Of a stretch of DNA of 35,350 nucleotides, positions 11,331 to 32,938 are shown in pieces. Source of the stretch: an uncultured bacterium (GTDB taxonomy: Bacteria; Krumholzibacteriota; Krumholzibacteriia; Krumholzibacteriales; Krumholzibacteriaceae). The notes beneath the pieces are model-generated. The model saw only the letters and a program-made list of their open reading frames with translations, ran no database searches and had not been told where the DNA came from. The DNA lies in the NCBI GenBank assembly GCA_965601905.1, contig CBFCXB010000002.1:1-35350 (forward strand), written 5' to 3'. The translations under genes were made by a program, and so were the position numbers. The first letter of the stretch is position 1; each line of letters opens with the position of its first letter.

Positions 11331-11407
11331 GCCCCCGTAGCTCAGGTGGATAGAGCATCGGTTTCCTAAACCGGGTGTCGCACGTTCGAGTCGTGCCGGG
11401 GGCGCCA
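11331..11407 (+). tRNA. tRNA-Arg (anticodon CCT), CCA encoded; integration target
   Basis: Acceptor GCCCCCG/CGGGGGC, D arm GCTC-AGGTGGATA-GAGC, anticodon arm TCGGT-TTCCTAA-ACCGG, T arm GCACG-TTCGAGT-CGTGC, G, CCA. Confidence 0.9.
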
Positions 11408-11408
11408 T
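11362..11408 (+). repeat. attL-like copy of the 47-bp direct repeat (3' part of tRNA-Arg)
   Basis: TTTCCTAAACCGGGTGTCGCACGTTCGAGTCGTGCCGGGGGCGCCAT is identical to 15509-15555. Confidence 0.9.
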
Positions 11409-11450
11409 TATTTTCAATGACTTGCGTATTGGACGCGGAAGCAAGTCGCT

Positions 11451-11475
11451 CTTCATATGCCACTAATATGCCACT
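11451..11475 (+). repeat. tandem ATATGCCACT repeats (11-bp period); putative integrase arm-type sites
   Basis: CTTCATATGCCACTA (11451-11465) is identical to 15367-15381. A second ATATGCCACT follows at 11466-11475. The repeats overlap the last codons of the integrase remnant. Confidence 0.5.
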
Positions 11476-11758
11476 TTTTTTGAACGAGGAGGGCATCAAC
11501 CGCTTTACGCTTCGTCTCGGGCGACGGGTGGGCGTATCGCATCGTCATCGCGATGTCAGCATGGCCCAAGAGCTCTTTGACCGTGACTAGGTCAACGCCA
11601 CCGAGTACCAAATTTGTCGCGAACGTGTGCCGTAAATCGTGAAAACGGCAAGGTTTGATGCCGGCGGCAAGAAGAGCTGTTCTAAACGAACGTGTGACGC
11701 TCTGGATGGTATATTCTACCATGAATAAGAAGGTCTGTAAATAGGGGGGATGGCACAT
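11453..11758 (-). pseudogene. tyrosine recombinase / phage-type integrase, C-terminal catalytic fragment only
   Basis: Contains RFHDLRHTFATNLV, LLGHADIAMTMRYAH (the catalytic H-x-x-R, H and Y boxes). Only ~100 aa remain, with no N-terminal SAM-like or core-binding domain and no upstream continuation. Confidence 0.75.
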
Positions 11759-11821
11759 AAGGGCCTAAGTATGCCATCATCATTGATAGGAAATGTCAGA
11801 AGCCTCTTACAGGCAGGAGAA

Positions 11822-14248
11822 CTATCTCAGAATCACCATCTTCCTGGTGATCGTTTCTTTTGCCGCCTGGAGCTTATAGAAATAAACACCTGATGCTACG
11901 TTAGTACCTTTAGCATCTTTGCCATTCCATCCAACATCATGATTCCCTTTGGACTGATTCTCATTAACCAGGCGTGCAATCCTTCGTCCGGATATATCGT
12001 AGATATCTATTCTCACATGGCAATTCTCCGGCAGATAATATCTGATTCTCGTCATGGGATTAAAAGGATTGGGATGGTTCTGCCAAAGGGTGAGCGGCAG
12101 CTGCGGTGTCTCAATCGCATCGGTTTCGAAGAGGATTTGTTTTTCTTGATTATTAATAACCTCGACGCGGTATTTGTATGTACTCCCGCAGTCAAATTTC
12201 TCATCCCTGAAATAATAGGCGTTGTTTCTGTGCTGAGCCTCGCCATCTGAAAGGGAACGGTAGTCTTCGATATTCCCGTCGGTACGAGAAATTATAAACT
12301 CCGCGTTTTCATCGTATTCAATGAGACTCCATGACAGCTCAATGAATGAGTTCTTATATGCTGCCGTATAACTGTCCAGAAGCGTTCCCGTTGCACCCTG
12401 TGGGACTATCAGTAGCGGGTCACTTTCGTTCCCGCTGTGATCCTTCGCTGTAATTTTATAGCAAACTGCCCCTGATGAATTCCAATCGCTGTCTAAATAT
12501 TGAGTTTCAGTTGTTTCAGCAATAAGATTCGCTTCACTCGGTTCAAATGATTGGTCATCGCAACGGTAGATGAAATAAGATTCAGTGTCGAAATCCGGCG
12601 GAGATTGCCAGGAGATTGCCATGCCCTCGTCGCTCGGTTCGGCGATCAATTCCTGAGGTGGATCTGGCGATAGTGAATCATCCGCATATGTAGAATCTGG
12701 ACATGAAGTCCATACAGTATACACGGTATCTCCATTTTGGACTGCATATTCCACAAACCTGACGATATACACCGTCCAGTACGTATCGCCATATGATGGT
12801 ACTATACTTAAGTAGCTATTTAGATAAAGATGCTGAGCAGGACGGGTTTCTACCAGCTTCCAGCCATCATCCGGGTGACAGTCGCAGTGAGCCGGGCCGT
12901 CTGCCACACTACTGTAAGCGCTGGATTCGGAAATTTCTCCAGGAGTTGCACCATCACCTTGAGCTTGCTCAATGGCGCTGCCTCGCCGTGCATATATTTC
13001 AAAATGCTCGTTATCGTTTCCTCCGTCCAGTGCGCTGGCTAAATAACGAATAGCTACGTTGCCATTATGCGTTGAATAATCGGAGACACGTATCAAATCC
13101 ACAGGGATTCCAATTTGTTTAGATCTACTATTGTTATTTTCATTAATTTCTTCAATCTGATTTAAATCATCAACACGAAGGTATAATACGGAGCCTCCCG
13201 GCTCCATTAAGGTGAATGTTGCTGATCCAACGAGTGTATCGCCAGATGCCAGCCCGCTATACTCATGGTAGTATACGGACCTATGCTCACTGGATCCCAC
13301 TCTTCTGGTATACAGCTCTATGCGAAATGCCCCCACCGATTGTGTGCCTGCATTAATCAATGCATATCTTGCATTGACCGGCGAGCACCCACATCGCACA
13401 TACCTGACTGAGTATATCCAGGTAGCTTTTAAATCAGAAAAGCCGGTAATATTCTTTTCATTTATGGTCGAGTTGCCGGCAAGATCGTGTATATTGACTG
13501 TTCGCAACGTATATGGTATCTCGTTCTCTGTGGCGTTCGACAAAATCAGTGAAACTGATGAACCGCCTTCCAACAAAGATGCGCTGAGAATGGCAATTGT
13601 GTCAGTAGGATTATCAACTTTACATATACTGTAACGAGAAATATCCTGTGCATCGTTCTCATTCAATGTTTCGCTGAAGAGCAAACGCAGATGATCATCA
13701 TCGATGATCTGTGCTTCAATAAGATACGGTGGCAGCGTGTCAGATGCGCAATGGTTGATGCAGAGATTGGAGTAGATTTTAAGCTCCTCGATAGGGAGAC
13801 CGACCTCGCATATGCAATGAATGGGGGTCTCATGATATGGATCCGTTTGGTGTTTGATTACTTCTATCGATGTTTCATCTTCGTTCAGGATATATAGGGT
13901 TTGACGAAAGATCCAGAGCCAATCGTGATGGCATCCGTCGAAGGCTAGACTAATTCCGTCTGGCAGGGCACCCAGAGGAAGCCCCTCAATTGCGCTGCTA
14001 AAAGTTATTGTACTTGGAACGATGTTCTCTGGATATTGGAGACCGAACTGGACTGCCTGCATTCCATCAGCGCTCGGCAAACACCATCCCCACATCTCGA
14101 TCTCTTGGAAGCCCGAACCTTGTTCACACCAATTGCTATGAGTCGAATCAGCGAAGAGACCTATGTAGCCGTGTGGTGGACTCTCTCCGAACGCTACTGT
14201 GGGTGACACACATATCATTAAGGTCACGAACGTGATTAATCTCATCAT
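11822..14248 (-). CDS. secreted multidomain surface protein with T9SS type-A / FlgD-Ig-like C-terminal sorting domain
   Basis: Signal peptide MMRLITFVTLMICVSPTVAFG. Start at ATG 14248, preceded by GGGAG. CARDB-like segment ending RVDDLNQIEEINENNNS, and Fn3-like segments. C-terminus: WQNHPNPFNPMTRIRYYLP...IDIYDISGRRIARLV...GVYFYKLQAAKETITRKMVILR. Confidence 0.8.
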   Translation of the reverse strand: MMRLITFVTLMICVSPTVAFGESPPHGYIGLFADSTHSNWCEQGSGFQEIEMWGWCLPSADGMQAVQFGLQYPENIVPSTITFSSAIEGLPLGALPDGISLAFDGCHHDWLWIFRQTLYILNEDETSIEVIKHQTDPYHETPIHCICEVGLPIEELKIYSNLCINHCASDTLPPYLIEAQIIDDDHLRLLFSETLNENDAQDISRYSICKVDNPTDTIAILSASLLEGGSSVSLILSNATENEIPYTLRTVNIHDLAGNSTINEKNITGFSDLKATWIYSVRYVRCGCSPVNARYALINAGTQSVGAFRIELYTRRVGSSEHRSVYYHEYSGLASGDTLVGSATFTLMEPGGSVLYLRVDDLNQIEEINENNNSRSKQIGIPVDLIRVSDYSTHNGNVAIRYLASALDGGNDNEHFEIYARRGSAIEQAQGDGATPGEISESSAYSSVADGPAHCDCHPDDGWKLVETRPAQHLYLNSYLSIVPSYGDTYWTVYIVRFVEYAVQNGDTVYTVWTSCPDSTYADDSLSPDPPQELIAEPSDEGMAISWQSPPDFDTESYFIYRCDDQSFEPSEANLIAETTETQYLDSDWNSSGAVCYKITAKDHSGNESDPLLIVPQGATGTLLDSYTAAYKNSFIELSWSLIEYDENAEFIISRTDGNIEDYRSLSDGEAQHRNNAYYFRDEKFDCGSTYKYRVEVINNQEKQILFETDAIETPQLPLTLWQNHPNPFNPMTRIRYYLPENCHVRIDIYDISGRRIARLVNENQSKGNHDVGWNGKDAKGTNVASGVYFYKLQAAKETITRKMVILR

Positions 14249-14286
14249 AATCACTCCCATCGAGATATTGTCATCTTATTAAGTAT

Positions 14287-14302
14287 TGCTTAAGTTGTGC
14301 CA
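14287..14302 (-). promoter_or_regulatory. candidate sigma-54 (-24/-12) promoter upstream of the islet cargo gene
   Basis: The minus strand reads TGGCAC-AACTT-AAGCA, against the consensus TGGCAC-N5-TTGCW. GG and GC are correctly spaced, ~40 nt upstream of ATG 14248. Confidence 0.4.
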
Positions 14303-15366
14303 ATATATCAAAGAGCTGTCAATATATTATCCCGATGAATTATATCTTACCATATAGCATATAATTAAGAGCTCACAAGAATACATTAATGGAATCATAT
14401 AGAGCTGCTATTCGAATGCATAACTTCGACCACACCGATCCATGCGGGTGCGGGGAGCGGGAGGGATGCATGCGGGAAACGGGCTCTGGGCAGCGATTTC
14501 TATGGATTCCGGGCTTTGTAGCCCCGCTCAGGAGAATTTCTGATGCCAGATCATGACCGCTCGATATCGTCGCTCTCTGAGTCGGTCGAGACCTCAGTCG
14601 GCATAGATGGGTGGAAGGAAGCGTTGAGTTTTTTTTAAGCGCTCGCAAATATTGCTTTGTTTCATTATTTTTAAATCAAATCGATTTAATGGTTCATGGA
14701 GGTAAAATGAAAACGCGATCCATGGAGGTGACAGCCTTTGACCAGGTTTGGATAGTGAGTAATGAGGCGGGTGGAACGTTTAAGTTTTTCAGAAGCATTC
14801 GCAAATTTGATTTGATTCATTTTTTCTGAATCAAAACTACCTTATGGGACATGAGGGTGTCTGCAAAATGCGGCACATGGGGGTTTAGGTGGAGAGCCTG
14901 TGCTGGGGGCATGGTTGCCGGGCTCTGGGTAATTGTGAGCCTTGCGCTGTCCTTCCCGTCATCCGCCCTTATGAAATGATAGCCGCAGTCGCAGTTTCGC
15001 CTCAGAGCCTTGCATCGCATCGGGGAGGGGTTTGCCGAAGACGGTTGGTTTCTTAAGAGAGATATCCGGTCTGGTGTTCTGTCCTATATTGAGAGAATTG
15101 GAAATATCATTACTTTCTTGAGACATATATAAGTCCTCCGGCAATATATTAAGGTCAAATCGTGATGGGGGCTGTTCAGATTGAAGGTATTGCCAAGCCA
15201 CCCGCTTGAAGCTCATAATTGTCAACATCTCGGATCATATCCGCCCAGTCACACGATACATGCTGCCGTCCCCCAGCCGTTCCTCTCCGTCCCACCACTC
15301 GATTTTGACATTTGTCTACCTCGCTGGGATGTTCACGCACGCGCTGTCCAGAGATTTCATCTGCCA

Positions 15367-15381
15367 CTTCATATGCCACTA
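15367..15381 (+). repeat. third copy of the ATATGCCACT-containing 15-mer near the attR end
   Basis: CTTCATATGCCACTA is identical to 11451-11465 and in the same orientation. A near-copy CTGCCACTT lies immediately upstream (15361-15369). Confidence 0.5.
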
Positions 15382-15508
15382 CAGATCGGGTCTGTCGGGT
15401 TCTCGTAAGACAAAAGACACCTCAGCAGAGAGTGTGAAAGACCAGGAGACGGGCGACGATTCGACAACTTCCACCGAATCACTCACTTGCTTTTTCATCT
15501 TCCTTCGC

Positions 15509-15555
15509 TTTCCTAAACCGGGTGTCGCACGTTCGAGTCGTGCCGGGGGCGCCAT
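15509..15555 (+). repeat. attR-like copy of the 47-bp direct repeat (orphan 3' part of tRNA-Arg)
   Basis: Identical to 11362-11408. It lacks the tRNA 5' half. Confidence 0.9.
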
Positions 15556-15558
15556 CAA

Positions 15559-15602
15559 AAAAGGGAATTACTTCTCGGATTTATTCGAAGTAATTCCCTT
15601 TT
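15559..15602 (+). terminator. perfect 16-bp stem hairpin right after attR (probable original tRNA-Arg terminator)
   Basis: AAAAGGGAATTACTTC (15559-15574), 12-nt loop, GAAGTAATTCCCTTTT (15587-15602). The U-tract is contained in the 3' arm. Confidence 0.5.
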
Positions 15603-16332
15603 CTCATAAAGGTAACGAGACACTGCCAAACCACCTTGCGTGACGTGTCTCAACCGCACTTCAGAGGCCTGAGCAGCAAGATCGCTTCGCTTCCTAAGTT
15701 TGGCATGAGAGCAGGCGGATCACGAACGCGTAGTTTTTTAATGCCTCGTTGATTACGATTATAGATTGCGCGTAGAAGATGTCAAGGAAAAAATACAAAA
15801 TATTATCAATTTTTATTTTATTTATTGATAGTAAGATGCGGATACAATCTTAGAATTTAGATTAAGTAAAACGCAGGAGGTGACAAAAACCACACACGGC
15901 TATGGATTGAGATTCAGCCGAAATGAACGCGTCTATAAAAAATATTATTGAGCTATTATACTATGAAAATATCATGATAAATTTTCGGGTCGCGCGTATG
16001 GACGCGCGGGGGGGTAAGGCGGGAGTGGAAATAAACATTCCCGCTGATACACCCATACTCAACGGGAATATTTATGAGACATTCGGTATTGGGTTCCTGA
16101 TCTTGCTACCGAAGCCACCAGAGAAGATCAATTATCCAGAATATCGGTAACACGGTGATCACCCCCAGTACAACTAAGCCTGACAATAGTCGGTTTAAAC
16201 CGCTACCTGCCTTTGAAACATCAAATATGTATTATTTGCATATGCTGTGCCGACAGTGGAAAGAACATGTCATATGAAGGTCTATCTTAAGAATTAACAA
16301 AACCTTGAGGGTAATAGAGAGAGTCGTGCAGA

Positions 16333-30208: not shown

Positions 30209-31750
30209 CTACTGAACTGTTGTAACTTCATTGCTACGAGAGAGTTTACCGCCTTTATCAAATACGTATACTCTATAATAATAGTTAAAACTGCCCAGGT
30301 CGAGACCCGTATCGTCATAGTATGTAACCTCGCGATCGTTTATTGTTTCCACGAGCGTCGACTGCGTTGTAACTCCCGGAGCGGTCTCGCGATATATACG
30401 GTATTCCTGGAAATCGGTATTTCCGTTCACGCTCCACGTCAAGGTAACGCGATTGTTCCCCACCGACGACAACTCGTCGAGGGTCACCGGTGTAGGATAG
30501 GCATCATGCGTCTGAGCGGCCAGCTCATCGCTACCGGCGGATTCATCGAGATCGTTTACTACATAGATCTTGTAGAAATATGTTTCTCCCTCATCGAGGC
30601 CGCCGTCCGGATAGGCTGTCTGGTCGATATTGTACAGCTTCTGCACGAGGAGAGCCGGATCGTCACTGACTCCCGTCTCCTTATCGCGATAGATCGCGTA
30701 GTATGCGAAATGCTCCTCGGTCGAGGCGATCCACCTGATCGTGATGCTTGCCACGGTCGAGTCCTGAACGCCGATCAGCGTGACCGGATCGGGGGGATCG
30801 GTAAGTGAAACGGTATAATCCGTCTCGTAGATCGGTGCCTCGTTCCCGGCGCGATCGATAAAAAAGCCCGCGAGGGTGAGATCGGTGCCGCGTACCCCAG
30901 TGGGGAAGGTGAAATCGGTCCCATACACGCCATCCGAGGACGTCTCGTCCCCTCCCCTCCCATCGTCGGCAAGGTAGATCGGCGTGTCGTAGCTCTCCAC
31001 CATGATCCACGCCTCACCGGAGGATTCATTGTCGTCGACATGCATTACGAGTTGGACCGTTGCCCCCGGACTGTAGCGATACGGTTGTGGCGAGAGCGAG
31101 ACGCCGGTGATCTCCGCATGGGTATCGAGCCCGATCGCATCGCTCATGACCGGCGATTCCGCACCGTTCTCGTCGCGGAAGCGGGCGTATACGGTTTTGA
31201 CGCCGTCTTCCTCGGTAAGGGTCCATACCCGATTGAAACGGTACGTCTCCCACGCACCGCCTGTAAATGTGGGATCATTCGCGATCATCATCAGGGCGGT
31301 CGTGACCGGAGCGCTCAGTTGAAGGGTAACCGCCCGTGAACCGGTATACTCCTCACCGTCGTTGATGATAATTGAATAGGCGGTGGGAACGGCTTCTATC
31401 TCCTCGGATCGATCGCCCTCGACGCCGTCCGCCCCAGCTGCGGACACCGAGTAGTAGTATGACCTGCCGCTGCGCACATTGCTATCGATATAGAAGGTGT
31501 CAACCGTTTCGGCAAGCCGGGCGGGGCGCTGCTCCTCGCTCGTTCTGCGGTACAGATGGTAGCTGCTCGCTCCTGCCGCCTCACGCCAGGTGAGAAGGAT
31601 CAACCCATCGTCGACCTGCGCGGCGAGATCGTTCGGTGCCGGTATTCCCTCCGTTTCGAGATCGAGCGGAACCTCTTCTATGTCTTCCAGGCAGCCATAC
31701 CCCAGGCCGAGTACCATGAGTGCGAGGGCCAGTAGCATCATTCTCTTCAT
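30209..31750 (-). CDS. surface lipoprotein with Fn3-like repeats
   Basis: Start ATG 31750, 8 nt after GGAGG. Lipobox LGYG|C. Several Fn3-like segments (SYHLYRRTSEE...YYYSVSA; FAYYAIYRDKE...YFYKIYV; FQEYRIYRET...YYYRVYV). Confidence 0.7.
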   Translation of the reverse strand: MKRMMLLALALMVLGLGYGCLEDIEEVPLDLETEGIPAPNDLAAQVDDGLILLTWREAAGASSYHLYRRTSEEQRPARLAETVDTFYIDSNVRSGRSYYYSVSAAGADGVEGDRSEEIEAVPTAYSIIINDGEEYTGSRAVTLQLSAPVTTALMMIANDPTFTGGAWETYRFNRVWTLTEEDGVKTVYARFRDENGAESPVMSDAIGLDTHAEITGVSLSPQPYRYSPGATVQLVMHVDDNESSGEAWIMVESYDTPIYLADDGRGGDETSSDGVYGTDFTFPTGVRGTDLTLAGFFIDRAGNEAPIYETDYTVSLTDPPDPVTLIGVQDSTVASITIRWIASTEEHFAYYAIYRDKETGVSDDPALLVQKLYNIDQTAYPDGGLDEGETYFYKIYVVNDLDESAGSDELAAQTHDAYPTPVTLDELSSVGNNRVTLTWSVNGNTDFQEYRIYRETAPGVTTQSTLVETINDREVTYYDDTGLDLGSFNYYYRVYVFDKGGKLSRSNEVTTVQ

Positions 31751-31768
31751 CGAGCACACCTCCGTATA

Positions 31769-32938
31769 TCAGACCCTCACCACGAGGGCGCAGCCGCTCC
31801 CGCTGATATCGAGTGCGTAACGATCAGGAACAGGTGGAAGTTCGGCGGGAAACAGGGTATCGAGGAGGCTGAGGCCCCATAGTCCCGCCAACGCGATGCA
31901 GGCGGCATCCCTGCGACGCCTCTCCTTCCGGGCGCTATCCCAGATGGCGGACGCTTCGTCTCTGTACCGTATCTTGTCCTCGATCGTCGATGCCGCTAGA
32001 AACCTGTCCACCGCGACGTCGTATCGAATCGTTTCTTGATTGTATCGGTTGTGGAAATCGAGGGCAAGCAGCCCCGAAACGACGCTCATTGAGGAAAGGA
32101 GAACGCCGCGCGTTGTTTTACCCTGGTAGAACTGTCCCCGTCCCGGGTGAATAAGTGAATGGATAAATGCCTTCGGCCTCGTCGCCCGTGCCGGGACGAC
32201 TTCAACGACACTTCCCTCCGCATCGGATCGCATGCGCGGAGGACCGCAGGCTATCCAGGGTTCGAGGAGCTGGAATCCGTAAAGGTACGCGGAGAGGCAA
32301 ATGAGCCGTTTGCGATGCTGGTTCTGTGCATTCACATCCCGTGAGGCCACATGAGCCGCCTCCTGAATGCGTCGCCGGTCCTCCAGCGTTTCGGCTTCCC
32401 GCAAGAGACCGTCCAGGACCTCGAGACGGTCTTCAAGATGGCGATACTCCTGATCCTCATCGTACAATATATAGAGGGAAGCGGCGAGCGAGAGGCCGTC
32501 GGTGAATCCGACAGCGGAATGATCCGCGTACGCCGATCCCCATCCGGGTACGAGCGCGTTTCTCAAGGCGGTCCGGATCCTGATACCCCCGAAACGCGGC
32601 CGACCGGCGCCGTCGATTGAGAACGTGCCGATCCTCCGCTCGAAACCGTATCCCTCGATTGTTGCACGATAGGGCTTTTTGTACTCCAGATCGCATATGG
32701 TGAACGGTAGCACGCCGTTGATGCTGTACTCACGCTTCAGCTGCAGATGAACGTTTTTCTCCGTTCCGGCGAAATGTATGCAAAACGAATCGACATCATC
32801 CGCGAATGCCGGCCTAGCCGGCACGGCAACTGCGGCAATAATCGTCAATACGACAAACCAGTGTTTGGCATCCACGCGAAACCCTTCCGTCGATATCCCA
32901 TGCACGGAGATCACTCCCGATACTACGAGCGGGCTCAC
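31769..32938 (-). CDS. hypothetical membrane or secreted protein with two PG(W/R)G-x-x-Y + TM modules
   Basis: The ORF is tightly packed between the BY-kinase gene (GTGA overlap) and the lipoprotein gene. Signal-like KHWFVVLTIIAAVAVPARPAFA. An alternative GTG start at 32875 follows GGAAGGG. I recognise no family. Confidence 0.55.
   Translation of the reverse strand: MSPLVVSGVISVHGISTEGFRVDAKHWFVVLTIIAAVAVPARPAFADDVDSFCIHFAGTEKNVHLQLKREYSINGVLPFTICDLEYKKPYRATIEGYGFERRIGTFSIDGAGRPRFGGIRIRTALRNALVPGWGSAYADHSAVGFTDGLSLAASLYILYDEDQEYRHLEDRLEVLDGLLREAETLEDRRRIQEAAHVASRDVNAQNQHRKRLICLSAYLYGFQLLEPWIACGPPRMRSDAEGSVVEVVPARATRPKAFIHSLIHPGRGQFYQGKTTRGVLLSSMSVVSGLLALDFHNRYNQETIRYDVAVDRFLAASTIEDKIRYRDEASAIWDSARKERRRRDAACIALAGLWGLSLLDTLFPAELPPVPDRYALDISGSGCALVVRV

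What the first reader, a model, noticed from the sequence alone, without database searches (positions are those of the whole stretch)
11822..14248. Single-cargo islet: 808-aa secreted multidomain protein with a T9SS-type C-terminal sorting domain
The product has a signal peptide and a Cys-containing N-domain of unknown family. An Ig-like segment follows (LRLLFSETLNENDAQDISRYSI...YTLRTVNIHDLAGNS), then a CARDB-like segment (..RVDDLNQIEEINENNNS) and two Fn3-like segments. The last ~85 aa (WQNHPNPFNPMTRIRYYLP..IDIYDISGRRIARLV..GVYFYKLQAAKETITRKMVILR) fit the T9SS type-A / FlgD-Ig-like sorting domain consensus. An integrase-borne element whose only intact gene is an adhesin-like secretion substrate is unusual. 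It suggests horizontal exchange of surface proteins that depend on a host-encoded secretion machine. No T9SS component is present in the window.
Basis: partly seen in the sequence, partly recalled or inferred. Interest (0 to 1): 0.65.

Follow-up and report, generated by a model that had tools for sequence, protein, structure and literature searches.

The report
T9SS surface protein in dead tRNA island
A 4.1-kb remnant of an integrating element sits in a tRNA-Arg gene of an uncultured marine-sediment bacterium, and its only intact gene encodes a foreign-looking surface protein with a cohesin-like head and a type IX secretion tail. This is a well-documented example of an ordinary kind of genomic island.

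Summary
ORF 11822-14248 (-) encodes an 808-aa protein whose last 81 residues pass the curated T9SS type-A sorting-domain models (TIGR04183 43.7 bits vs cut-off 23; PF18962 33.8 vs 27). CARDB also passes.

The "unknown" N-domain models confidently (pLDDT 95) as a cohesin-like beta-sandwich. It belongs to a large family with no Pfam model.

The gene lies in a genuine insertion:
- It is bounded by a 51-nt direct repeat of the tRNA-Arg(CCT) 3' part.
- Relatives from other metagenomes have the empty site.
- GC3 is 0.45, against 0.67-0.76 in the host genes.

The element is dead. Only the last ~80 of ~350 integrase residues remain. The rest of the island is decaying non-coding DNA. Depth equals flank depth in three samples.

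Related islands at the same tRNA share att arms but carry different cargo. Three of four informative lineages hold a T9SS-tail gene or relic. Full-length homologues elsewhere sit in ordinary chromosomal contexts.

Whether the host encodes a T9SS could not be tested. Mobile-element-borne T9SS cargo and cohesin-plus-sorting-domain proteins both have published precedents. Verdict: real and well explained, a new member of a known kind, of moderate interest.

The parts
11331..11407 (+). tRNA-Arg(CCT), the integration target. Its 3' part was reconstituted by the element (attL).
   Evidence: ARAGORN and Rfam tRNA at 59.9 bits. Orthologous tRNA-Arg(CCT) is present in the empty-site relatives L088, L093, L095 and L090.
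11358..11408 (+). attL copy of the 51-nt direct repeat, running from the anticodon loop to the 3' end of the tRNA.
   Evidence: Repeat family D1, 50/51 identical to 15505-15555. Junction sequences were compared with empty sites.
11455..11475 (+). Tandem pair of ATATGCCACT, a candidate arm-type integrase-binding site (attL arm).
   Evidence: Two exact 10-mers lie 11 nt apart. The same pair occurs inside attR, and only one other exact copy exists in the 35 kb.
11453..11707 (-). Tyrosine-integrase stump (pseudogene). Only the last ~80 residues remain (HxxRH and catalytic Tyr region). The open frame runs on to 11758, but homology stops at 11707.
   Evidence: Pfam Phage_integrase matches profile positions 108-170 of 172. 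Full-length relatives are 338-456 aa, and homology starts at residue ~278 of 374.
11707..11790 (.). Short conserved block downstream of the cargo gene. It holds a promoter-like site (- strand, 11741->11713) and the inverted pair ATGGCAC..TGCCATC. It is shared with other genomes of the same community.
   Evidence: read laying and promoter scan.
11822..14248 (-). Cargo gene: an 808-aa predicted T9SS substrate.
11831..12073 (-). T9SS type-A C-terminal sorting domain (aa 726-806).
   Evidence: TIGR04183 43.7 bits (cut-off 23), PF18962 33.8 (27), FlgD_ig 41.9 (27).
12077..12391 (-). Conserved pre-CTD beta-rich domain (aa 620-724) with no family model.
   Evidence: It recurs directly before the CTD in many homologues. 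No Pfam or PDB sequence hit.
12413..12691 (-). Fn3-like domain (aa 520-612).
   Evidence: It aligns to fn3 repeats of P0167 and P0113. It gives no direct Pfam hit.
13121..13375 (-). CARDB domain (aa 292-376).
   Evidence: PF07705 at 36.4 bits against a cut-off of 22.7. The model shows a beta-sandwich.
13463..13741 (-). Big_5/SbsA-type Ig-like domain (aa 170-262).
   Evidence: High-confidence beta-sandwich. Homologues hit PF13205. The closest PDB matches of the 3-domain model include S-layer SbsB/SbsC.
13754..14185 (-). Cohesin-like N-domain (aa 22-165) with conserved Cys, Trp and Asn residues.
   Evidence: AlphaFold model at pLDDT 95, pTM 0.88. The top 20 PDB matches are all cohesins (TM 0.52-0.66, E down to 6.6e-6, <=13% identity). 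No Pfam, NCBIfam or PDB sequence hit.
14186..14248 (-). Sec-type signal peptide (aa 1-21), with predicted cleavage after AFG.
   Evidence: Read from the sequence. Helix 2-13 in the model.
14249..15356 (.). Decaying non-coding part of the island. It holds only short ORFs without family hits and shows indel polymorphism in the population.
   Evidence: ORFs; no Pfam hits; no CTD relic. A 245-nt deletion variant occurs at ~1/3 of depth, with 1-nt and 5-nt indels.
15357..15504 (+). attR arm of the element. It is conserved in the related islands L086, L087 and L092 and starts with the tandem ATCTGCCACT/ATATGCCACT pair (15359-15380).
   Evidence: blastn at 74% over the arm. In the alignment the tandem motif is the best-conserved part. 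Motif search.
15505..15555 (+). attR: the displaced partial copy of the tRNA-Arg 3' part.
   Evidence: The Logan assembly breaks inside it. Partial tRNA copies lie at the same place in L003, L086, L087, L092 and L094.

Best explanation
**What it is.** Window 11358-15555 is the decayed remnant of a small tyrosine-integrase element. It integrated site-specifically into the anticodon-loop-to-3'-end segment of tRNA-Arg(CCT), in the chromosome of an uncultured, diderm, Krumholzibacteriota-like bacterium from marine sediment.

**History (inferred).** A ~3-kb low-GC3 DNA segment later replaced the first ~277 codons of the integrase gene and whatever lay beside it. That segment carries one gene with its own flanking intergenic modules. 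The element is now immobile and fixed in the population.

**How the protein most likely works (inferred from family knowledge).**
1. The Sec system exports it through its signal peptide.
2. The type IX secretion system recognises the C-terminal type-A sorting domain.
3. The protein crosses the outer membrane.
4. The PorU sortase removes the sorting domain and anchors the protein on the cell surface.
5. On the surface, a stalk of Ig-like modules (Big_5-like, CARDB, an unassigned region, Fn3-like, pre-CTD domain) holds out an N-terminal cohesin-like module. That module probably binds a protein partner or another surface.

**Shown here.** The island boundaries, the empty sites in relatives, the integrase truncation, the foreign composition, the domain calls and the cohesin-like fold.

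**Inferred here.** Secretion by T9SS, surface anchoring, binding function, and the order of events.
For: **Island**
- A 51-nt direct repeat of the tRNA 3' part bounds the insert.
- L088, L093, L095 and L090 have SpoIIE, the conserved block, an intact tRNA-Arg and apt contiguous, with nothing in between.
- GC falls to 0.45 against 0.53-0.60 in the flanks. Cargo GC3 is 0.449 against 0.67-0.76 for host genes.
- Tandem ATATGCCACT pairs lie inside both att sites and are conserved in related islands.

**Dead element**
- Integrase homology covers only residues ~278-350 of full-length relatives.
- The other island ORFs have no family hits, and indel variants segregate in that region.
- Island depth is 20.6/90.2/30.7. 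The flanks are 21.1/82.9/27.7 and 22.1/81.6/31.1 in three runs. No empty-site contig appears at genome depth.

**Secondary arrival of the cargo**
- The integrase break (11707) coincides with the edge of a block that other community genomes share.
- The integrase stump has GC3 0.576, against 0.449 for the cargo.

**Protein**
- CTD and CARDB HMMs score above curated cut-offs.
- Full-length homologues with the same architecture exist, for example P0053, P0061, P0069, P0073, P0077, P0097 and P0067.
- The N-domain has a cohesin-like fold.
- The gene is intact in all three samples, with 2 synonymous and 2 non-synonymous differences.

**Host lineage**
- LptE and a lipid A acyltransferase are in the window.
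- Gene order is shared with a Krumholzibacteriia MAG (L002) and with L003.
- Other proteins with the same sorting domain occur at the same locus in relatives. The L003 gene passes TIGR04183 at 30.6 bits. L086 and L087 hold a CTD relic.
Against: - No T9SS machinery gene could be looked for in the host genome. The sorting domain has been validated experimentally only in Bacteroidota (my own knowledge).
- No expression data exist, because no RNA run holds the gene.
- The signal peptide was judged by eye.
- The cohesin likeness is fold-level only: <=13% identity, and no hit to Pfam Cohesin or to PDB sequences.
- The order of events is inferred from coinciding boundaries and composition only. A simple internal deletion of an element that already carried the gene would leave a similar picture.
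- Contig-based read laying cannot exclude rare excised forms.
Confidence: 0.68

Rival explanations
1. The element brought the gene with it. The 808-aa protein was an original passenger of the integrase element, and a plain internal deletion later removed the 5' three-quarters of the integrase gene.
For: - The gene lies between attL and attR.
- Related islands at the same tRNA also hold T9SS-tail genes in L003 and in L086/L087. That suggests such genes are typical passengers of these elements.
- The whole island is low in GC.
Against: - GC3 of the integrase stump (0.576) differs from that of the cargo (0.449).
- The integrase break coincides to within 3 nt with the edge of a block found next to unrelated DNA in other genomes of the community.
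- The T9SS genes in the related islands are different proteins, at the other end of the island and in the other orientation.
- No related island in hand carries this gene.
Confidence: 0.2
2. The C-terminal domain is only an Ig-like (FlgD-Ig type) fold used for something other than type IX secretion. The protein might be a periplasmic or otherwise exported multi-Ig protein in a lineage that lacks a functional T9SS.
For: - FlgD_ig scores as well as Por_Secre_tail on this tail.
- No T9SS component is in the window.
- Literature searches found no paper naming both Krumholzibacteriota and type IX secretion, and nothing on T9SS in the paper read.
Against: - The domain is at the extreme C-terminus and passes the curated TIGR04183 cut-off by 20 bits.
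- Hundreds of unrelated multidomain proteins end in the same tail, which is the hallmark of a sorting signal.
- The host groups by synteny with an FCB-superphylum lineage. Reviews assign T9SS to that superphylum (PMC12398890 highlights; PMC7468147).
Confidence: 0.1
3. The gene is one cassette of a site-specific cassette-exchange system for surface proteins. The two short conserved blocks (11707-11790 and 14613-14650) would be recombination sites, and they bracket different ~3-kb inserts in different genomes.
For: - In a differently abundant genome of the same samples, the two blocks occur in the same order and orientation, 3177 nt apart. Nothing between them is >=80% alike.
- The left block contains an inverted pair ATGGCAC..TGCCATC. 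Its arms recur in other contigs but its spacer does not.
- A small contig joins a 14542-14568-like piece to an 11735-11761-like piece in the order expected for adjacent cassettes.
Against: - No repeat is shared between the left and right blocks.
- The left block also reads as a plain promoter, so the blocks may simply be conserved intergenic regulatory modules of a paralogue array. P0061 sits in an array of four such genes.
- The matches are only 38-54 nt long.
- The blocks are absent from all 107 other loci in hand.
- No intact recombinase is present.
Confidence: 0.1

Closest known systems
T9SS type-A C-terminal-domain cargo proteins (TIGR04183 / PF18962), e.g. gingipains of Porphyromonas gingivalis and SprB/RemA-type adhesins of Flavobacterium johnsoniae
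   Same: Both have a Sec signal peptide, a modular beta-rich passenger and an ~80-aa sorting domain at the extreme C-terminus that scores above the curated cut-offs.
   Different: The host is outside Bacteroidota (Krumholzibacteriota-like). The tail scores equally well as FlgD_ig. The passenger has no catalytic domain. Secretion and the presence of the machinery are untested.
tRNA-integrated genomic islands with tyrosine integrases (P4-like or lambda-like integration into a tRNA 3' part)
   Same: It shares the direct repeat of the tRNA 3' part, the integrase next to the tRNA, candidate arm-type sites, atypical composition, and empty sites in relatives.
   Different: It is only 4.1 kb. The integrase is reduced to its last ~80 residues. 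There is one intact gene, no excisionase, and no sign of excision.
Phage-encoded, highly variable T9SS cargo genes ('Cryophage', PMC7468147)
   Same: In both, a mobile element carries proteins with T9SS type-A sorting domains that must rely on a host-encoded machine. The cargo differs between related elements (compared here).
   Different: Here the carrier is a small decayed integrative island with no phage genes. No close relative of the cargo is on IMG/VR viral contigs.
Cohesin modules of cellulosomal scaffoldins, and the cohesin-plus-CTD scaffoldin-like protein of Cloacimonadota (PMC8542988)
   Same: The N-domain has a nine-strand jelly-roll cohesin fold (TM 0.52-0.66 to type I, II and III cohesins). 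The combination of a cohesin-type module with a T9SS sorting domain for surface attachment is shared.
   Different: There is no sequence-level membership in Pfam Cohesin. No dockerin partner has been identified. The domain has conserved Cys/Trp positions of its own. It also occurs as a stand-alone ~185-aa secreted protein ending in an SWGAIKSLY-like motif.

Membership tests
T9SS type-A CTD substrate | Sorting domain matches TIGR04183 / PF18962 above the curated cut-offs | tested here: met
   TIGR04183 scores 43.7 bits (cut-off 23). PF18962 scores 33.8 (27).
T9SS type-A CTD substrate | Domain lies at the extreme C-terminus of the protein | tested here: met
   Residues 726-806 of 808.
T9SS type-A CTD substrate | N-terminal Sec signal peptide | tested here: met
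   By inspection only: MMR, then a 15-residue hydrophobic core, then AFG|E. Helix 2-13 in the model. No signal-peptide predictor was available.
T9SS type-A CTD substrate | Host genome encodes the T9SS core (SprA/Sov, PorV, PorU, GldK/L/M/N) | not testable with these tools
   Only this 35-kb contig of the genome is accessible, and none of its ORFs is a T9SS component.
T9SS type-A CTD substrate | T9SS-dependent secretion and CTD removal shown experimentally | not testable with these tools
   This is an experiment. No RNA run holds the gene.
tRNA-integrated tyrosine-integrase island | Insert bounded by direct repeats derived from the tRNA 3' part | tested here: met
   Coordinates 11358-11408 and 15505-15555 are 50/51 identical.
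tRNA-integrated tyrosine-integrase island | Empty target site in related genomes | tested here: met
   L088, L093, L095 and L090 have an intact tRNA-Arg directly next to the conserved block and SpoIIE.
tRNA-integrated tyrosine-integrase island | Intact integrase gene adjacent to the tRNA | tested here: not met
   Only Pfam positions 108-170 of 172 are present. Homology to 338-456-aa relatives starts at residue ~278.
tRNA-integrated tyrosine-integrase island | Composition different from the host | tested here: met
   GC is 0.44-0.48 against 0.53-0.60 in the flanks. Cargo GC3 is 0.449 against 0.67-0.76.
tRNA-integrated tyrosine-integrase island | Present-day excision (empty junction or circle in the population) | tested here: not met
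   Island depth equals flank depth in three runs. The only skipping joints involve the highly repeated tRNA at depths unrelated to this genome. Contigs cannot show rare forms.
Cohesin module (Pfam PF00963) | Cohesin beta-jelly-roll fold | tested here: met
   Model at pLDDT 95. The top 20 Foldseek PDB hits are all cohesins, TM 0.52-0.66.
Cohesin module (Pfam PF00963) | Sequence match to the family model | tested here: not met
   No Pfam hit for residues 22-172 at E<=10. The profile gives no PDB sequence hit at E<=1.
Cohesin module (Pfam PF00963) | Cognate dockerin-bearing partner | not tested
   No dockerin search was run.
Integron gene cassette | Integron integrase next to attI, with cassettes following and each ending in an attC site | tested here: not met
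   The integrase stump lies downstream of the cargo on the same strand and abuts a tRNA att repeat. Its NCBIfam scores do not separate IntI from Xer. No attC model was run.

The most novel reading that the evidence does not exclude
The two short blocks that bracket the cargo gene (11707-11790 and 14613-14650) bracket 3.2 kb of unrelated DNA in a more abundant genome of the same sediment community. They could be the exchange sites of a cassette system that swaps whole T9SS surface-protein genes between Krumholzibacteriota-like bacteria. The tRNA-Arg island would then be one landing pad.
Probability: 0.1. Interest if true: 0.7.

Novelty: new member of a known kind. Interest (0 to 1): 0.4.

Why it matters
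- **A clean natural example.** It shows how bacteria outside Bacteroidota renew their surface coat. One tRNA-Arg hotspot is compared across about a dozen related uncultured genomes. It is empty in some and holds different T9SS-tail genes or their relics in others.
- **An unannotated domain gets a fold.** A widespread domain is assigned to the cohesin fold. It has no Pfam or NCBIfam model. It is found at the head of hundreds of multi-Ig T9SS-tail proteins and as stand-alone secreted proteins. This suggests cohesin-type protein docking on the surface of these sediment bacteria.
- **Limits.** Neither point overturns current views. Both are testable leads.

Tried and rejected
1. **Word-indexed homologue searches.** The full protein returned only CTD-level hits. 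The N-terminal 275 aa and the N-terminal alignment returned nothing. The protein looked like an orphan until the exhaustive HMMER search showed 3952 relatives.
2. **Exact look-up of the cargo protein's contig.** It failed. LeuRS gave the Logan contig instead.
3. **Integron reading.** I considered it because the integrase stump scores near IntI models and short conserved blocks flank the gene. I rejected it for the tRNA att repeats, the arm-type sites, and the position and orientation of the stump.
4. **Second T9SS gene relic next to attR.** One exists in L086/L087. None was found in window 14249-15560 (best tblastn E 0.08 in a 1.3-kb target).
5. **Terminal repeats of a transposon around the cargo.** None exceeded the shuffle controls.
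6. **The flanking blocks in other loci.** They are absent from all 107 loci.
7. **Viral origin.** No relative of the cargo is in IMG/VR.
8. **Rfam.** Nothing was found in the non-coding part of the island or the neighbouring conserved block, even at E<=5. The only returns were hairpin look-alikes of the terminator.
9. **Foldseek with the 3-domain model.** It gave only generic multi-Ig matches, so the N-domain had to be modelled alone.
10. **Literature on T9SS in Krumholzibacteriota.** Nothing was found.
11. **RNA evidence.** No run holds the gene.
12. **Global alignment of the conserved block with L003.** It was misleading, because the block is inverted there.
Full report
**1. The observation**

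The minus-strand ORF 11822..14248 is real and open for 808 aa. An in-frame ATG four codons upstream (14260) would give 812 aa. The 14248 start has a GGAG five bases upstream (sequence). Three independent Logan assemblies also aa.

- CARDB at residues 292-376 scores 36.4 bits against a cut-off of 22.7.
- A type-A T9SS sorting domain sits at the extreme C-terminus, residues 726-806. TIGR04183 scores 43.7 against 23. PF18962 scores 33.8 against 27. FlgD_ig scores 41.9 against 27.

- The N-terminus reads as a Sec signal peptide (MMR, hydrophobic core, AFG|E). This is by inspection only.
- The 'Ig-like' segment 170-262 has no significant Pfam hit of its own. It models as a confident beta-sandwich. 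Its counterpart in homologues hits Big_5 in 13 of 26.
- Segment 520-612 aligns to proven fn3 repeats in P0167 and P0113.
- The second 'Fn3-like' segment (620-724) is a conserved domain that precedes the sorting tail in many relatives, but it has no family model.

**2. The protein is not an orphan**

The word-indexed searches found only tail-level matches or nothing. The exhaustive HMMER search with residues 1-725 found 3952 proteins at E<=0.001 and 74 at E<=1e-30.

Seven relatives share the whole architecture at about 30% identity: P0053, P0061, P0067, P0069, P0073, P0077 and P0097.

The N-terminal ~145 residues form a distinct module:
- Among the 150 best hits there are 90 copies in 70 proteins. 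Of these, 54 are at the N-terminus and 36 are internal.
- Internal copies occur in giant Big_5-repeat proteins.
- The module also occurs as a stand-alone ~185-aa secreted protein ending in an SWGAIKSLY-like motif.
- Pfam, NCBIfam and PDB sequences have no match for it.

Modelled alone with 32 family sequences, it gives pLDDT 95 and pTM 0.88. The best 20 PDB fold matches are all cohesins of types I, II and III (TM 0.52-0.66, E down to 6.6e-6, identity <=13%). The head of the protein therefore has a cohesin-like fold. It is not a sequence-level member of the cohesin family.

**3. The island is real**

- tRNA-Arg(CCT) lies at 11331-11407.
- Its last 51 nt recur at 15505-15555 with one mismatch.
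- GC drops from 0.53-0.60 to 0.44-0.48 between the repeats.
- The flanks are core genes of a diderm bacterium. On one side: Der, PlsY, GpsA, SurE, Pcm, a sigma-70 family factor and Apt. On the other: a GAF-SpoIIE phosphatase, LeuRS, HolA, LptE and a sigma-54 two-component pair.

A 25-mer from the conserved block beside attR retrieved 11 related loci from JGI metagenomes. They fall into three groups:
- **Empty site (L088, L093, L095, L090).** SpoIIE, the conserved block, an intact tRNA-Arg(CCT) and apt are contiguous.
- **Family A (L086, L087, L092).** A partial tRNA copy sits at the same spot. It is preceded by ~150 nt that are 74% identical to window 15357-15504.
- **Family B (L003, L094).** L003 is the closest genome in the GTDB collection (LeuRS 71% identical). 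These loci have a partial tRNA copy with a different arm.

Tandem ATATGCCACT pairs lie 47-68 nt inside attL and 125-146 nt inside attR. They are the best-conserved part of the family-A arm, as expected for arm-type integrase sites.

**4. The element is dead**

- The ORF next to the tRNA matches only positions 108-170 of the 172-position integrase model.
- Against full-length relatives of 338-456 aa, homology starts at residue ~278, which is window 11707.
- The 1.1 kb between the cargo gene and the attR arm has only short ORFs with no family hits.
- That region has no detectable relic of another sorting domain.
- Indel variants segregate there: a 245-nt deletion at about a third of the depth, plus 1-nt and 5-nt indels.
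- In three marine-sediment runs the island has the same depth as both flanks (20.6/90.2/30.7 against 21.1/82.9/27.7 and 22.1/81.6/31.1). No empty-site contig appears at that depth.
- The cargo gene is intact in all three runs, with two synonymous and two non-synonymous differences.

**5. How the cargo probably got there**

- The cargo's GC3 is 0.449. The integrase stump has 0.576, and host genes have 0.67-0.76.
- The point where integrase homology stops (11707) is also the left edge of a 54-nt block (11707/11710-11763). Several other contigs of the same metagenomes carry this block.
- In one differently abundant genome (depth 12/168/74), a 38-nt match to 14613-14650 follows that block 3177 nt later. 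Nothing between is >=80% alike.
- The left block reads as a promoter on the minus strand. It has an inverted pair ATGGCAC..TGCCATC upstream.

My reading is that a ~3-kb segment from a lower-GC community member replaced the 5' part of the integrase gene. That segment is the cargo gene with its own intergenic modules. The modules could come from a tandem array of paralogues. P0061 sits in such an array of four. This step is inference. A plain deletion in an element that already carried the gene is the main rival.

**6. Is T9SS cargo a habit of this site?**

Among occupied lineages that can be read:
- L003 carries an intact, unrelated LVIVD-Fn3 protein with a TIGR04183 tail (30.6 bits), ending 305 nt from att.
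- L086 and L087 carry a sorting-domain pseudogene with an in-frame stop, 45% identical to the window's tail. An ECF sigma factor and a membrane protein lie beside it.
- L092 carries a lipoprotein and a small cupin, and no tail.
- In L090 a stand-alone N-domain protein sits between apt and the tRNA.

The full-length homologues whose neighbourhoods could be read lie among ordinary chromosomal genes. None has an integrase nearby (P0061, P0067, P0069, P0073, P0097). P0077's short contig starts in what looks by eye like a tRNA 3' end, but no tRNA was called there.

**7. Host and the untested point**

Gene order (sugar transferase, histidine kinase, sigma-54 regulator, HolA, LeuRS) is shared with L003 and with a Candidatus Krumholzibacteriia MAG, L002. 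This places the host near that FCB-superphylum lineage.

Reviews assign T9SS to that superphylum (PMC7468147). I found no paper on T9SS in Krumholzibacteriota. I could not reach the rest of the genome. It is the first thing to do.

**8. Comparison with what is known**

The locus works like a classical tRNA island that has lost its integrase. The protein looks like a standard T9SS type-A substrate with an adhesin or scaffold-type passenger.

Two precedents reduce the surprise:
- A phage whose variable genes carry T9SS type-A tails (PMC7468147).
- A Cloacimonadota scaffoldin-like protein that combines cohesins with a sorting tail (PMC8542988).

New here are three things: the particular island family, the comparative series at one tRNA, and the fold assignment for a large unannotated domain family.

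**9. Verdict**

This is a new member of a known kind. Interest is 0.4. The cassette-exchange reading of the flanking blocks is the most novel possibility left open, at about 10%.

Noticed in passing
window 15551-15785 (- strand); also L003 17013-17277 and L085-L095: A conserved small-RNA-like unit lies between attR/tRNA-Arg and the SpoIIE gene. It has a 12/12 sigma-70 consensus promoter (TTGACA-16-TATAAT, 15785->15758). A ~140-nt rod-like hairpin with a 60-nt invariant core follows, then a terminator hairpin abutting the tRNA. The promoter and core are present in all 13 related loci. The closing helix is AACGAGAC/GTCTCGTT in most loci, with a different pair of sequences in L003 and L094. In the consensus fold, 6 of 58 pairs show double changes. 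No Rfam family matches, even at E<=5.
   Followed up: partly
window 15636-16167 vs L003 17113-17511 and L094: The ~530-nt block holding that RNA-like unit is inverted, relative to SpoIIE and the att repeat, in L003 and L094 compared with the window and the other relatives.
   Followed up: no
window 11707-11790 and 14613-14650: Two short blocks bracket the cargo gene. In a differently abundant genome of the same samples they recur in the same order, 3177 nt apart, around unrelated DNA. Further low-depth contigs carry the left block only. This is unexplained.
   Followed up: partly
window 14698-14944; also 14628 and 15011: A 245-nt deletion variant occurs at about one third of the depth in all three runs. 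It lies between two diverged copies of a ~100-nt repeat (cgcaaat..tttgattcatttttt..aatcaaa). The public contigs also show 1-nt and 5-nt insertions relative to the window.
   Followed up: no
L090 845-1408 (-): In one relative with an empty att site, a 187-aa stand-alone cohesin-like N-domain protein lies between apt and tRNA-Arg. It is 42% identical to cargo residues 24-166 and ends in SWGAIKGLYKR. This is on the other side of the same tRNA.
   Followed up: partly
proteins P0133, P0137, P0147, P0148, P0150, P0153, P0162: Stand-alone N-domain proteins of ~185 aa all end in a conserved (S/T)WGAIK(S/G)(L/M)(Y/F) motif. This may be a sorting or docking signal. P0133 has a sub-threshold hit to 'choice-of-anchor N' (E 0.036).
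   Followed up: no
L082 (2604-nt Logan contig carrying P0053): The contig consists of the homologue gene alone. Its first 19 nt are repeated at its end, just after a long imperfect palindrome. This could be a tandem or circular assembly artefact, or a repeat flanking the gene.
   Followed up: no
window 30209-31759 (-) and 31769-32938 (-): A 516-aa protein with a C-terminal fn3 domain sits next to a DUF5683 protein, a ParA-like ATPase and a Wzz/GNVR protein. This looks like a surface-polysaccharide cluster. It is conserved in L003.
   Followed up: no
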